A stretch of 64,000 bases of DNA from NCBI RefSeq assembly GCF_009914755.1, contig NC_060927.1. The stretch is one strand, 5' to 3'. The position numbers and the translations under genes were made by a program. Below are positions 6,990 through 41,780 of this stretch, piece by piece. This stretch comes from the human T2T-CHM13v2.0 reference genome, Homo sapiens. The notes under the pieces are model-generated. The model searched no databases and was not told the DNA's origin. It saw only the letters and a program-made list of their open reading frames with translations. Each line of letters starts with the position of its first letter. Within the stretch, counting starts at the first letter, position 1.

Positions 6990-7056
6990 GTGTGTATATA
7001 TATATATATGAATATATATTATATATAATACATATGTGTGTATATATGTACTTATA

Positions 7057-7099
<43 letters not shown>
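6990..7099. repeat. (TA)n / (TG)(TA) microsatellite
   Basis: Long TATATA runs seen directly. Confidence 0.95.
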
Positions 7100-8575: not shown

Positions 8576-10734
8576 CACACACTTTCTTTCTATACCTGCA
8601 TGCACATGCTCACACGTGCAGACACACATGCATCTGCCTGCTCGTCCATATAAAAATCTAAACGTAGCTCTAGCACTCTAGACCCTCACTTCATGCATTG
8701 AACCAGCATAGGGGACGTGGCTCAAATAAGCATATTATAAAATCTTCCACATGATTTAGATTAATGATTCTATTTAGAAACCATTGCTTTAATCCATGTC
8801 TTCTGTGGTTCTTGTCTAATTGTGAGGCAGAATTGGGAAAGGCTTCACAGAGGGGAGAGTATTTTCTAAATCCATCTTCTCTCTTTTTACCTCTTTTAGC
8901 CAGGAGCCAGCATGATGTAGAACTACATTTAATACCAAAGGGTCTTTCCAGATTCCCATAGCTCTCCTCATTATGGTCTTTTATTATGGAAAACATTCTC
9001 TCACATCTCGCATTCTTGCCTCATCTATCTACTCCAAGTGAGTTTGGTAGTTAGAGACTGGAAATTTTTCCTCTTTAAATACTATACATTTTTAAAATCT
9101 GTATTAATTTAGGATTGATTAAATGGGTTAATTCCAGACTTTCCAAGGCTAACACCGTATCATGTGGTATCTTGAAAGCCTGGAGGTTTTGAGATATCTG
9201 CTATTTTTATAACCTAAAGAGTGAAGAAGTGGCTCAGGAGAAGAAAATTAATCTCAGTGTTTTCATGGGATAGGGATCGTTCTGGGAGTATAGGGAGAAC
9301 CATGAGAGGAAATGTAGGAAAAGTATGTACTCTACATATTTAGGGAGATTCCTAGTGCATGACATTTGGGACATAAAACCTTTTATATTTTTTGTGAGAC
9401 AAACAGACTTGATTCAGGCTTCTCTATGCTATTTATGAGCCCCAAGAAGGCTTAGCTACAAGGTAGGGGACTTGTGACTTGGAGTTTGTTATAATGATAG
9501 GAAATCTTATGTTAACAAAACAATATCAAAGTAAACCATTTCAATGAAGTTGTTAACTAAATTCTCTTACTTTCCTCTCCAATCTGGCATAGTTTTCACA
9601 ACTCCAAAACTGAGATAACAATAGTGCCACCTTCCTCAGTTGTTAGACGGAATAAATGAGTAGTACCAGCCCACAAAATGCTGAATAAGTGTCAGCTTTT
9701 AGTAATAGAATTCTAATTGGTATTGAATAATATAATTTCTGATATAAGGGATCATTCAAAAGAATTGAGTTTTAAATTTTCTACTATATACAGCTAGCTT
9801 AAGAGTTTAATATAACACTTTGACATCCATTTTTTTCTTTCCAAAACTAGCAATTACATCCAGTTTCCAACATAGCATAATGAAATGTTTAGATACAATT
9901 GTAATGTTTTATATTTGAGAAATCAAAGCTAGAGACTGGTTCAAGGAGACATAGCTACCAAAGGCAGAGTCAGGGCTCCAACGCAGGTCTTCTGATGAAT
10001 AGTGAGAAAATAAGACAAACTATGATAAGTCTTAAAATATGGCATAAGTTCTATTGTGGTTCAGATGAAGAAAGGGGAACATCTTAATGGGAACTGATGG
10101 ATAGACGGTGCCTGTTTGAAATTCTGTTCAATTGCTTACGTTTTGCCTGGATGTTTCTGTAGATTCCACTGAATTAGTCAGCCTTACTGATTTGAGGTTC
10201 TGACCATGAAAGTTGGCTTCAGAGTCATTTCATCCTAATCCAGTTAGAATCAGCTTCACCCTTTTCACTTACATGATAAATCAGGCTCAAGCCTTGCACT
10301 CTGCTTGAGAGGAGGTTGGAAATGAGTTCCCAATTTAGAATAAGACCATCTGCACCATATGTGGGCCATCCAACTGGGACTGGCTCTGCCCTGGCTACCA
10401 AACTAATTATGGATATATTTCAGGGTGTAAGTTACTAGGCTTAAAATCCTTAATTGGCAAAGTTTTATTTTGTTAAAATCCCTTTGCTTTCGCTTTGGAA
10501 AAAAAGCTCAGTAATCAAGATAAAATATGTAATGGACTATTAATTCAAATCAAATTTAATTTTAAAAAATCCATGATGAATATAACATTAAAATTTTAAA
10601 TGAAGACAAGATTGAATACTTCAGAGCCCTTCCTCTGTATCCTCATCCTAATCTGGCCCTCTTTCCAATAAAAGTTTTTAAAAGTAGGCAGCCAGCGTAC
10701 AGGCCATAGTTTACCCATTTGATCTAAATTTAAT

Positions 10735-10814
10735 TTAAATCTAAATATATATGTATATATTTAAATCTAAATATATATGTATATACTTAAATCTAAATAC
10801 ATACATATATATAT
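10735..10814. repeat. AT-rich minisatellite, 26 bp x3
   Basis: TTAAATCTAAATATATATGTATATAT starts at 10735, 10761 and 10787. Confidence 0.9.
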
Positions 10815-33271: not shown

Positions 33272-33598
33272 TTTTTTTTTTTTTTTTTGAGACAGAGTCT
33301 TGCTCTGTCGCCCAGGCTGGAGTGCAGTGGTGTGATCTCGGCTCACTGCAAGCTCCGCCCCCTGGGTTCACGCCAGTGTCCTGCCTTCACGCCAGTGTCC
33401 TGCCTTAGCCTCCCGAGTAGCTGGGTCTGCAGGCGACCGCCACCTCTCCCCGCTAATTTTTTTTTTTTTTTTGTATTTTTAGTAGAGACGGGGTTTCACC
33501 ATGTTAGCCAGGATGGTCTCGATCTCCTGACCTCGTGATCTGCCCGCCTCGGCCTCCCAAAGTGCTGGGATTACAGGCGTGAGCCACCTTGCCCGGCC
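33272..33598 (-). mobile_element. AluY with a 19-bp internal tandem duplication
   Basis: Y-type diagnostics (CTGCAAGCTCC, GTTCACGCCA, TTAGCCAGGATGG); perfect 19-bp TSD TGTGCTTATAAATATTTCT at 33253-33271 and 33599-33617. Confidence 0.96.
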
Positions 33599-40322: not shown

Positions 40323-40525
40323 ATCTCACTCTTAGAACACTTCTTTTCTTCTCTAAGAGTAAGTGTTTTCCAATTATACTGCCTATTTTGCGGTCCAAGC
40401 CCCTATTCTTGCTTTCCCTCAATGTTTCTCGTCTTCCCAGATGAATCCAGAAACCACAGGTCCCCAGTGGTACCTTGGCACTGTGAGAGTCACCTGAAAA
40501 CTACCTTTAAAAAGTCAATGGCCAA

Positions 40526-41329
40526 GCCGGGCGCGGTGGCTCACACCCGCAACCCCAGCACTCTGGGAGGCCGAGGCGGGTGGCTTCCCTGAGCTCGGGA
40601 GTTCGCAGCCAGCCTGGGCAACACGGCCAAACCCCGTCGCTACTAAAATGCAAAGGACCAGCCGGGCGCGATGGCGGGCGTCTGTGGTCCCAGCCAGCGG
40701 CGAGGCTGAGGCGCGGGAACTGCGTGACCCCGGAGGCGGAGGTCGCAGTGAGCAGAGGCCGCCGCACTCCAGCCCGGGCGACGGAGCGGCGAGGCTGAGG
40801 CGCGGGAACTGCGTGACCCCGGAGGCGGAAGTCGCAGTGAGCAGAGGCCGCCGCACTCCAGCCCGGGCGACGGAGCGGCGAGGCTGAGGCGCGGGAACTG
40901 CGTGACCCCGGAGGCGGAAGTCGCAGTGAGCAGAGGCCGCCGCACTCCAGCCCGGGCGACGGAGCGGCGAGGCTGAGGCGCGGGAACTGCGTGACCCCGG
41001 AGGCGGAGGTCGCAGTGAGCAGAGGCCGCCGCACTCCAGCCCGGGCGACGGAGCGGCGAGGCTGAGGCGCGGGAACTGCTTGACCCCGGAGGCGGAGGTC
41101 GCAGTGAGCAGAGGCCGCCGCACTCCAGCCCGGGCGACGGAGCGGCGAGGCTGAGGCGCGGGAACTGCGTGACCCCGGAGGCGGAAGTCGCAGTGAGCAG
41201 AGGCCGCCGCACTCCAGCCCGGGCGACGGAGCGGCGAGGCTGAGGCGCGGGAACTGCTTGACCCCGGAGGCGGAGGTCGCAGTGAGCAGAGGCCGCCGCA
41301 CTCCAGCGCGGGCGACGGAGCGAGACTCC
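40526..41329 (+). mobile_element. GC-hyper-enriched Alu carrying an internal tandem array
   Basis: Starts GCCGGGCGCGGTGGCTCAC, has a left arm, linker and right arm, and ends AGCGAGACTCC; substitutions against consensus are mostly A/T to G/C. Confidence 0.95.
40696..41318 (+). repeat. Alu-right-arm minisatellite: 7 x 89 bp
   Basis: Units start at 40696, 40785, 40874, 40963, 41052, 41141 and 41230. Only 3 variable positions; 68/89 G+C and 12-13 CpG per unit. Confidence 0.98.
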
Positions 41330-41559
41330 TCGCGGGCAGCGGGGTAGTGGGGGCGGGGGGGGGCGCGGGGCAGGGCTTGGGGGAGGCCAAAGGCGACCTC
41401 TGAGCTCTTGTCCTTACCCTGGGAGAGTATGGAACTCAGAGAAATCATCTGACCCGGGTAATGTATGACAACAAGCAGGAAAGCTTTGCTTGAGAAAAAA
41501 AATGTCTTGTTTTAAATGCTGAGGCTTTGGGACCACAGTTTCATGATGAACAAACATTC

Positions 41560-41780
41560 ACTGAACCCCCTACCTTATGCCAGAGGCTTTTCCATAATTA
41601 TCTCCTTTAATTGTCACAAAAAAACTCGGCAAGTGTCAGAGTTATTGCCATGCTACAGAAGAAACATCGAGACTTAGAGAGGTGGGACAGCTTTGCCGAG
41701 ACCACACTGAAGAGCGTGGTAAGTGGCAGAAGAGACCTTAAGAGCCAGCTTTGTTCAGCCTGCAGGATGCTCTCTCCACC
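41560..41780 (-). mobile_element. MIR (CpG-retaining)
   Basis: TATGCCAGAGGC...CAGAAGAAACATCGAGACTTAGAGAGG...CTTTGCCGAGACCACAC...GGTAAGTGGCAGA. Confidence 0.6.

What the first reader, a model, noticed from the sequence alone, without database searches (positions are those of the whole stretch)
40696..41318. An Alu right arm amplified into a homogeneous 7 x 89-bp CpG-rich minisatellite
Seen: the unit AGCGGCGAGGCTGAGGCGCGGGAACTGC(G/T)TGACCCCGGAGGCGGA(G/A)GTCGCAGTGAGCAGAGGCCGCCGCACTCCAGC(C/G)CGGGCGACGG repeats exactly every 89 bp between an intact left arm/linker and the normal Alu end. The copies differ at only 3 positions, although each unit is far from the Alu consensus. Inference: the amplification is much younger than the Alu and came after its divergence, so copy number is probably polymorphic. 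Each added copy would contribute ~13 CpGs, making a CpG island of variable size. Alu-derived minisatellites are known in general; I cannot tell whether this locus is described.
Basis: partly seen in the sequence, partly recalled or inferred. Interest (0 to 1): 0.85.

Follow-up and report, generated by a model that had tools for sequence, protein, structure and literature searches.

The report
Alu-derived 89-bp CpG-rich minisatellite
One old Alu element near the tip of human chromosome 3p has had the far two-thirds of its right half copied head-to-tail seven times and has drifted towards G and C, making a small CpG island next to the start of a predicted non-coding RNA; this is a tidy example of a known kind of repeat, not a new kind.

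Summary
Tandem Repeats Finder gives 40696-41322, period 89, 7.0 copies, 98% matches. The seven units differ at 3 columns only.

The array sits inside a single Alu. With one unit kept, the element aligns end to end with six other Alus of the window. Rfam gives sub-threshold SRP and mir-1268 matches. The unit is the distal two-thirds of the right arm, not the whole arm.

The array is unique in T2T-CHM13.

The new point is the direction of divergence. The element differs from the local Alu consensus by 40 weak-to-strong against 9 strong-to-weak changes. The six neighbouring Alus show 73 against 143. The element has 20 new CpGs and a G-rich former poly(A) tail. The result is an 877-bp CpG island (74.6% G+C, observed/expected 0.96) in 36-43% G+C flanks. 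It ends at the annotated start of lncRNA LOC105376922.

"Young, amplified after divergence" is only partly supported. Two units keep the ancestral T at column 29, so homogenisation is still running.

Copy-number polymorphism, orthologues and methylation could not be tested.

Verdict: a new member of a known kind (Alu-derived, GC-rich subtelomeric minisatellite). Interest is modest.

The parts
40520..40525 (+). Left copy of a 6-bp direct repeat (GGCCAA); candidate remnant of the Alu target-site duplication
   Evidence: Read. The same hexamer follows the G-rich tail at 41385-41390. Six bases are weak evidence on their own.
40526..40642 (+). Alu left arm, single copy and GC-shifted
   Evidence: Rfam Metazoa_SRP match at 40526-40642: 43.6 bits, E 1.4e-9, below the gathering score of 70, as expected for an Alu rather than an SRP RNA gene. 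Collinear with six window Alus. 27 W>S against 7 S>W changes.
40643..40659 (+). Remnant of the A-rich linker between the two Alu arms
   Evidence: Aligns to the A-rich middle of the local Alu consensus.
40660..40695 (+). Proximal 36 nt of the right arm, single copy and not part of the repeat unit
   Evidence: The Rfam mir-1268 (Alu-derived miRNA family) match at 40659-40710 scores 48.9 bits, below the gathering score of 83.
40696..41318 (+). Seven head-to-tail 89-bp units, the distal two-thirds of the Alu right arm
   Evidence: TRF period 89, 7.0 copies, 98%. 3 variable columns. 12-13 CpGs per unit. Only this locus in CHM13 matches at 98-100%.
41319..41332 (+). Single-copy 3' end of the Alu body. 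Its first 4 bp (AGCG) repeat the first 4 bp of the unit, giving a flanking direct repeat
   Evidence: TRF extends to 41322. Aligned to the end of the local Alu consensus.
41333..41384 (+). Former poly(A) tail, now G-rich (36 G, 8 C, 4 A, 4 T of 52). It holds overlapping G-quadruplex motifs (41334-41383) and the window's only GGGGCGGGG (41350-41358)
   Evidence: The 9-mer is expected 0.01 times per window by shuffling. The tails of the other Alus are A-rich.
41385..41390 (+). Right copy of the GGCCAA direct repeat (candidate target-site duplication)
40524..41400 (.). CpG island made by the whole element: 877 bp, 74.6% G+C, 114 CpGs, observed/expected 0.96, with sharp edges
   Evidence: The 100-bp bins run 0.69-0.77 G+C inside, against 0.48 and 0.38 in the adjoining bins. 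Whole window: 38.7% G+C, observed/expected 0.22.
41373..41718 (+). Exon 1 of the predicted lncRNA LOC105376922. It starts inside the G-rich former tail, 51 bp after the last repeated base
   Evidence: Coordinates come from the hub's RefSeq table (a predicted model). A GTAAGT donor begins at 41719. No expression data were available.

Best explanation
This is one old Alu insertion, about 40526-41384. An 89-bp segment of it, the distal two-thirds of the right arm, was amplified in place from one copy to seven. The first duplication was most likely by slippage or unequal exchange between short direct repeats. The array is bounded by AGCG, and the two ends of the segment share an imperfect GAG-CT similarity. 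Further copies were then gained and lost by unequal sister-chromatid or meiotic exchange and by conversion between 89-bp units, and these processes also keep the units alike. The whole element, including its non-repeated parts, evolved under a very local GC-favouring regime. The most likely cause is GC-biased gene conversion at a recombination-active spot, probably together with low germline methylation. That regime kept most old CpGs, added about 20 new ones and turned the poly(A) tail into a G-run. The product is an 0.88-kb CpG island. Six-sevenths of the array (534 bp, about 77 CpGs) is added by the amplification. The island most likely serves as the CpG-island promoter of the adjoining predicted lncRNA. 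Shown: anatomy, Alu origin, uniqueness in the genome, direction of substitutions, island statistics. Inferred: slippage origin (about 0.6), gene conversion as the cause of the GC shift (about 0.6), promoter role (about 0.45), copy number polymorphic in people (about 0.75). The overall confidence given is for the structural core (an Alu-derived array made in place, plus a GC-ward shift that makes a CpG island).
For: Array. Alu identity: the element with one unit kept aligns over positions 3-272 of 288 to the five best of the six other full Alus of the window, at 69-73% identity (66% over 3-259 for the sixth). The multiple alignment is collinear from head to 3' end. Rfam gives SRP and mir-1268 matches. 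In-place origin: of 43 matches in CHM13, 4 are this locus at 98-100%. The other 39 are single Alu right arms at 80-84% identity, and none spans a unit junction (40 of 2359 candidates scored). GC-ward regime: target 40 W>S and 9 S>W, against 73 and 143 summed over six neighbouring Alus; Fisher odds ratio 8.7, p 1.5e-9. 21 of the 40 W>S changes do not create a CpG. T>C (18) and A>G (15) are balanced. 10 of 15 inferred ancestral CpGs are kept and 20 are new, against 0-6 new in the neighbours. The tail is 85% G+C. None of the 3 variants between units is a CpG-to-TpG/CpA loss, although CpGs make up 180 of 623 bases. This fits low germline methylation, though n is only 3. Promoter context: the annotated start at 41373 lies 15 bp after a GC box at 41350-41358, within G4 motifs, and a GTAAGT donor closes exon 1. 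Literature: Alu-derived minisatellites and the flanking-direct-repeat model (PMC3389668, passages and section 3.4). GC-rich long-unit VNTRs are 21-fold enriched within 5 Mb of chromosome ends (PMC7608644, passages). GC-ward substitution rises towards telomeres and with male crossover rate, in Alus too (PMC2346554, passages). A class of 'biased gene conversion islands' exists among CpG islands (PMC8286816, one passage).
Against: The window as a whole is AT-rich (38.7% G+C, CpG observed/expected 0.22), and its other Alus decay in the usual strong-to-weak direction. A regional subtelomeric effect therefore cannot explain the shift; a hotspot under 1 kb wide has to be assumed. The island's edges coincide with the Alu's edges, which is sharper than a conversion gradient would predict. 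There is no exact PRDM9-type 13-mer in or near the element: the window's 2 matches lie at 196 and 5473, with 0.81 expected. PMC7608644 lists 3p among the arms with fewer VNTRs. The flanking direct repeat is only 4 bp, shorter than the 5-20 bp used in PMC3389668. The first 7 bases of unit 1 differ from the Alu consensus at 5 positions, so the original breakpoint may have been overwritten. The lncRNA is a predicted model, and no expression or methylation data were seen.
Confidence: 0.8

Rival explanations
1. The array is old and is shared with other apes, perhaps at other copy numbers. It looks young only because unequal exchange and conversion keep homogenising the units (concerted evolution). 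On this reading much of the divergence from Alu accumulated after amplification began and spread through the array.
For: Column 29 keeps the consensus T in 2 of 7 units, while 5 carry a derived CpG-creating G. The variant types are interspersed (a b b a c b c'), which needs several exchange events. Units differ by 1.5% on average, which is not negligible. PMC3389668 reports that Alu-derived arrays with many units are partly present in other primates and grow slowly (passages).
Against: The never-amplified left arm shows the same amount and direction of divergence, so the array is not needed to explain most of it. With only 3 variable sites no dating is possible.
Confidence: 0.4
2. The CpG island is a passive by-product with no promoter function. 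On this reading the lncRNA model is transcriptional noise or a prediction artefact, and the island is methylated like the 'biased gene conversion islands'.
For: The gene model is predicted only (hub table). No paper mentions LOC105376922 (0 papers). PMC8286816 describes conversion-type islands as highly methylated (one passage).
Against: 0 of the 3 variants between units are CpG losses. CpG observed/expected is 1.04 in the array. The annotated start lies right at the island's edge, after a GC box. A consensus splice donor closes exon 1.
Confidence: 0.4
3. The GC shift comes from RNA editing: an ADAR-edited (A-to-I) Alu transcript was retrotransposed.
For: 15 A>G changes in the body and an A-to-G-converted tail.
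Against: T>C changes (18) are as common as A>G (15), so the shift affects both strands. There are also 7 W>S transversions. Editing cannot explain the tandem array.
Confidence: 0.03
4. The array is an assembly artefact, or a copy brought in from another locus by segmental duplication.
For: None from the calls.
Against: No second locus exists in CHM13. The array is 627 bp, far shorter than the long accurate reads behind this assembly (established knowledge, not tested here). The units carry a structured variant map rather than being identical.
Confidence: 0.02
5. The array is coding: a 313-codon ATG-started open frame runs antisense through the whole element (40507-41448, minus strand).
For: The ORF is listed. 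The minus strand of the unit has no stop in any of its three frames.
Against: 0 Pfam families. 89 is not a multiple of 3, so the frame rotates through the units. At 76% G+C a unit with no stop in any frame is expected fairly often by chance (my estimate is about 0.3). No coding gene is annotated here.
Confidence: 0.01

Closest known systems
Alu-derived minisatellites (Jurka & Gentles 2006, seen only as cited; Ahmed & Liang 2012, PMC3389668)
   Same: A piece of one Alu is repeated head to tail in place. The units resemble each other more than any other Alu in the genome, and a short direct repeat bounds the array. It meets that study's stated filters: >=95% identity between units, G+C >=40%, >=2 copies, overlap with a TE by at least one period.
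   Different: Seven copies is well above the reported AluS mean of 2.31 units; only 8.11% of arrays from older AluS subfamilies exceed 3 units. The direct repeat is 4 bp, against their 5-20 bp. The strong GC-ward shift and the CpG-island outcome are not features discussed in the passages I read.
GC-rich subtelomeric VNTRs / classical hypervariable minisatellites (PMC7608644; Jeffreys-type loci, recalled)
   Same: G+C above 60%, unit longer than 15 bp, about 0.47 Mb from the 3p end, and an interspersed variant-repeat map.
   Different: Variability is not shown here. 3p is named among the arms with fewer VNTRs. The surrounding 64 kb is AT-rich with only 3 arrays of TRF score >=100.
'Biased gene conversion' CpG islands (class summarised in PMC8286816)
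   Same: CpG richness comes mainly from weak-to-strong substitutions (20 new CpGs, W>S:S>W of 40:9), close to a chromosome end.
   Different: That class is described as highly methylated with rapid deamination. Here no CpG-loss variant is seen among the units (0 of 3), and the island abuts an annotated transcript start. A recombination hotspot has not been shown.
VNTR region of SVA retrotransposons (recalled)
   Same: A CpG-rich, copy-number-variable tandem array associated with Alu-like sequence.
   Different: SVA arrays travel with a composite mobile element present at many loci. This array is single-locus, lies inside an ordinary dimeric Alu, and its unit is Alu sequence itself.

Membership tests
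Alu (dimeric 7SL-derived SINE) | Left arm, A-rich linker and right arm collinear with other Alus | tested here: met
   With one unit kept, the element aligns over 3-272 of 288 to the best of six window Alus at 66-73% identity. The multiple alignment is collinear.
Alu (dimeric 7SL-derived SINE) | Similarity to 7SL/SRP RNA | tested here: met
   Rfam Metazoa_SRP at 40526-40642, E 1.4e-9, 43.6 bits, below the gathering score of 70. It is therefore Alu-like and not an SRP RNA gene.
Alu (dimeric 7SL-derived SINE) | 3' poly(A) tail and target-site duplication | tested here: inconclusive
   The tail position holds a 52-nt G-rich run (4 A of 52) instead of A's. Only a 6-bp direct repeat, GGCCAA, flanks the element.
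Alu (dimeric 7SL-derived SINE) | Subfamily assignment by RepeatMasker/Dfam | not testable with these tools
   No repeat library was on hand. From recalled diagnostic positions it looks S-type, but this was not tested.
Minisatellite / VNTR | Head-to-tail array of a 10-100 bp unit | tested here: met
   Period 89, 7.0 copies, 98% matches.
Minisatellite / VNTR | Copy number varies between individuals | not testable with these tools
   Only one human haplotype (CHM13) could be searched. No pangenome or primate genomes were available.
CpG island (length/G+C/observed-expected criteria, thresholds recalled) | >=500 bp, G+C >=55%, CpG observed/expected >=0.65 | tested here: met
   877 bp, 74.6% G+C, observed/expected 0.96.
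CpG island (functional sense) | Unmethylated in germline or early embryo; promoter activity | not testable with these tools
   There are only indirect hints: 0 of 3 variants between units are CpG losses, and an annotated lncRNA start lies at the island edge (hub table).
GC-biased gene conversion tract | Excess of weak-to-strong over strong-to-weak substitutions, on both strands and outside CpG contexts too | tested here: met
   40 against 9, compared with 73 against 143 in neighbours. 21 of the 40 create no CpG; T>C 18, A>G 15.
GC-biased gene conversion tract | Coincides with a meiotic recombination hotspot | tested here: inconclusive
   No exact CCNCCNTNNCCNC motif in the element (the motif is recalled). 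Recombination maps were not available.

The most novel reading that the evidence does not exclude
A complete CpG-island promoter was built from one Alu by three stacked processes: GC-biased substitution (20 new CpGs), conversion of the poly(A) tail into a GC-box/G-quadruplex core promoter, and six-fold tandem amplification. This gave rise to a lineage-specific lncRNA (LOC105376922) whose promoter length is set by a copy-number-variable repeat. It would be a natural series of alleles for asking how CpG-island size sets methylation state and transcription.
Probability: 0.22. Interest if true: 0.55.

Novelty: new member of a known kind. Interest (0 to 1): 0.3.

Why it matters
If copy number varies, the locus offers natural alleles of one CpG island that differ only in length, at about 13 CpGs per step. 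It could then be used to test how island size relates to methylation and to the activity of the adjoining lncRNA start. It also shows how an ordinary Alu can be turned into a CpG island by GC-biased evolution rather than by protection from decay alone. Both themes are already established in general, so the value is as a clean example rather than a new principle.

Tried and rejected
1. PRDM9-type 13-mer: 2 matches in the window (at 196 and 5473), none in or near the element, 0.81 expected. This gives no support for a motif-driven hotspot.

2. Hairpin-driven slippage: one unit was folded as DNA on both strands in two registers. The z-scores were -0.63, -0.30, 0.05 and 0.31, no better than shuffles.

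3. Coding reading of the 313-codon antisense frame: 0 Pfam families. The open frame is explained by composition.

4. miRNA or SRP gene reading: both Rfam matches are below their gathering scores.

5. ADAR-edited retrocopy: rejected by strand symmetry.

6. Higher-order periodicity: TRF reports only period 89. The unit map a b b a c b c' shows no clean 2- or 3-unit period.

7. Searches for the locus in print:
   - 'LOC105376922': 0 papers.
   - 'VNTR'+'CHL1'+'long-read': 2 papers, neither about this locus by its listing.
   - '3p26.3'+'VNTR': 3 papers, unrelated by their listings.
   - 'LINC01266' with repeat terms at min_terms 2: 7,609 papers, and the 10 listed had 0 occurrences of LINC01266, so this search was uninformative.

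8. The supplement of PMC3389668 (its full list of TE-derived repeats, which may contain this locus) could not be opened.

9. Earlier findings of this scan were not open.

10. Soft-masking could not be read, because the stored window is all upper case. The hub's list of masked stretches, which goes down to 141 bp, does not include this element.

Full report
**1. The observation**

Tandem Repeats Finder reports one array at 40696-41322: period 89, 7.0 copies, 98% matches, no indels, score 1212. Only 3 arrays in the whole 64-kb window reach score 100, and the other two are AT-rich simple repeats.

Cutting 40696-41318 into seven 89-mers shows 86 invariant columns and 3 variable ones:
- column 29: GGGGTGT
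- column 46: GAAGGAG
- column 79: CCCCCCG

The mean difference between units is 1.33 bases, or 1.5%. Six units contribute 13 CpGs each and unit 5 contributes 12. The array has 75.6% G+C, 90 CpGs and observed/expected 1.04.

**2. What it sits in**

The array lies inside one Alu.
- Rfam matches 40526-40642 to metazoan SRP RNA (E 1.4e-9, 43.6 bits, below the gathering score of 70). It matches 40659-40710 to the Alu-derived mir-1268 family (48.9 bits, gathering score 83). This is what a diverged Alu, rather than a real SRP or miRNA gene, should give.
- With six of the seven units removed, the element aligns collinearly with six other full-length Alus of the same window. It covers positions 3-272 of 288 at best, at 66-73% identity.
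- A multiple alignment runs from the Alu head through the linker to the 3' end.
- The unit is not the whole right arm. The first 36 nt of that arm (40660-40695) are single-copy, and the unit is the distal two-thirds.
- A hexamer, GGCCAA, lies just before the head (40520-40525) and just after the tail (41385-41390). It may be what is left of the target-site duplication. That would bound the element at 40526-41384: 859 bp, or 325 bp without the six extra units.

**3. Where the array came from**

A two-unit query against the whole T2T-CHM13 assembly gave 43 matches. Four are this locus at 98-100% identity. The other 39 are single Alu right arms at 80-84% that stop at the unit border (40 of 2359 candidates were scored, best first). 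The array therefore arose in place and exists once in this genome.

It is bounded by a 4-bp direct repeat (AGCG at 40696-40699 and 41319-41322). The two ends of the amplified segment also share an imperfect similarity in the local Alu consensus. This fits the model in which replication slippage or unequal exchange between short flanking direct repeats makes the first duplication. PMC3389668 describes that model for Alu-derived minisatellites, citing Jurka and Gentles 2006 and Haber and Louis (passages, section 3.4).

The repeat here is shorter than the 5-20 bp used there. The first seven bases of unit 1 differ from the Alu consensus at five positions. The original breakpoint may therefore have been overwritten by later conversion. 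I put the slippage origin at about 0.6.

**4.

Against a majority consensus of the six neighbouring Alus:
- left arm: 38 substitutions in 171 aligned bases (22.2%), of which 27 are weak-to-strong (W>S) and 7 strong-to-weak (S>W)
- repeat unit plus 3' end: 20 in 100 (20.0%), of which 13 are W>S and 2 S>W

Each of the six neighbours, scored the same way against the others, shows 11.8-25.0% divergence. Summed, they have 73 W>S and 143 S>W changes. The contrast, 40:9 against 73:143, has an odds ratio of 8.7 and p 1.5e-9.

Further detail on the 40 W>S changes:
- 19 create or join a CpG and 21 do not.
- T>C (18) and A>G (15) are balanced, so both strands are affected.

The element keeps 10 of 15 CpG positions that I could infer as ancestral; the neighbours keep 2, 5, 4, 10, 2 and 7. 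It has 20 further CpGs, against 0-6 in the neighbours. The position of the poly(A) tail holds 52 nt with 36 G, 8 C, 4 A and 4 T, while the neighbours' tails are A-rich. The amount of divergence is thus ordinary for an old Alu, and what stands out is that it runs towards G and C.

**5. The resulting island**

Positions 40524-41400 are 877 bp at 74.6% G+C, with 114 CpGs and observed/expected 0.96. The kilobase on either side has 36.2% and 42.8% G+C with observed/expected 0.27 and 0.22. The whole window has 38.7% G+C and 0.22. In 100-bp bins the G+C is 0.69-0.77 inside and drops to 0.48 and 0.38 in the adjoining bins.

The six added units supply 534 bp and about 77 of the 114 CpGs.

**6. How the GC shift most likely arose**

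GC-biased gene conversion at a recombination-active site is the best single explanation (about 0.6). The shift is on both strands, it extends beyond CpG contexts, and it affects the repeated and non-repeated parts alike.

The literature I read places such effects near chromosome ends, and in Alus in particular:
- In PMC2346554, the G+C content towards which sequences evolve rises towards telomeres and with male crossover rate. The authors say this confirms earlier work on Alu repeats by Webster et al. 2005, which I saw only as cited (passages).
- PMC8286816 summarises a class of 'biased gene conversion islands' among primate CpG islands (one passage).
- PMC7608644 reports that VNTRs with more than 60% G+C and units over 15 bp are 21-fold enriched within 5 Mb of chromosome ends (passages). 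This locus lies about 0.47 Mb from the 3p end.

Several things count against this explanation:
- The shift is confined to under 1 kb, and the other Alus of the window decay normally.
- The island's edges coincide with the Alu's edges.
- No exact 13-mer hotspot motif lies in the element.
- 3p is listed among the arms with fewer VNTRs.

Low germline methylation probably contributes. None of the 3 variants between units is a CpG-to-TpG or CpG-to-CpA change, although CpG bases make up 180 of the array's 623 positions. With n = 3 this is only a hint.

**7. Timing**

The equal divergence of the never-amplified left arm supports the idea that most of the divergence does not depend on the array.

At column 29, however, units 5 and 7 carry the T of the Alu consensus, and the other five carry a G that creates a CpG. 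The simpler history is that this GC-ward change arose in one unit of an existing array and has spread to five. The three variant types are also interspersed (a b b a c b c'), which needs several exchange events.

Homogeneity therefore reflects ongoing concerted evolution at least in part, and the age of the array is open. PMC3389668 reports that Alu-derived arrays with many units tend to be partly present in other primates and to grow gradually. In that survey AluS-derived arrays average 2.31 units, and only 8.11% of those from older AluS subfamilies exceed 3. Seven copies therefore lies in the upper tail.

**8. Possible function**

The hub's RefSeq table places the start of the predicted lncRNA LOC105376922 at 41373.
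- That is inside the G-rich former tail, 51 bp after the last repeated base.
- It is 15 bp after the window's only GGGGCGGGG (41350-41358; 0.01 expected per window).
- It is within overlapping G-quadruplex motifs at 41334-41383.
- Exon 1 ends at 41718, just before a GTAAGT donor.

This is the layout of a CpG-island promoter, but I saw no expression or methylation data and the model is only predicted. I rate the promoter role at about 0.45.

A 313-codon antisense open frame spans the element. It has no Pfam match, and composition explains it: the unit's minus strand has no stop in any frame.

**9. What could not be done**

No other human haplotype, primate genome, methylome or recombination map was available. 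The central predictions, polymorphic copy number and variable island size, therefore remain untested.

Searches for the locus in print found nothing specific.

**10. Verdict**

The finding is real and is correctly read as an Alu-derived CpG-rich minisatellite. It belongs to known kinds: TE-derived minisatellites, GC-rich subtelomeric VNTRs and conversion-type CpG islands. It is a clean and rather large example of them.

The added value of this check has three parts. The whole Alu, not just the array, has evolved towards G and C. The island is built mostly from gained CpGs plus amplification. The homogeneity of the units does not by itself show a recent origin.

Noticed in passing
window 40507-41448 (minus strand): A 313-codon ATG-started open frame runs antisense through the whole Alu and array. 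The unit's minus strand lacks stops in all three frames. It has no Pfam match, so it is most likely a composition effect.
   Followed up: yes
window 33295-33597: The Alu 7 kb upstream keeps 10 of 15 inferred ancestral CpGs, has 16 CpGs in all, and shows slightly more W>S than S>W changes (16 against 11). This is unlike the other four or five Alus of the window. It may simply be a younger Alu.
   Followed up: partly
window 40520-41400 against the hub's list of masked stretches: The hub's list of masked stretches goes down to 141 bp and includes the other Alus, but not this 859-bp element. The GC-shifted Alu seems to escape NCBI's masking, so repeat-masked scans could treat it as unique sequence.
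   Followed up: partly
window 6995-7093 and 10733-10812: There is a (TA)50 microsatellite and a 26-bp AT-rich repeat of 3.1 copies. These are the only other arrays in the window with TRF score >=100.
   Followed up: no
G000 matches: Several of the best non-self matches to the GC-rich unit lie near chromosome ends (for example C6 at 0.59 Mb, C18 at 0.71 Mb, C1 at 1.02 Mb, C16 at 1.52 Mb). This hints that CpG-rich Alu right arms are commoner there. It was not quantified.
   Followed up: no
window 41349-41376: TRF finds short 10-12-bp periodicities (2.2-2.3 copies) inside the G-rich former tail. The tail may therefore have been remodelled by slippage as well as by A-to-G substitution.
   Followed up: no
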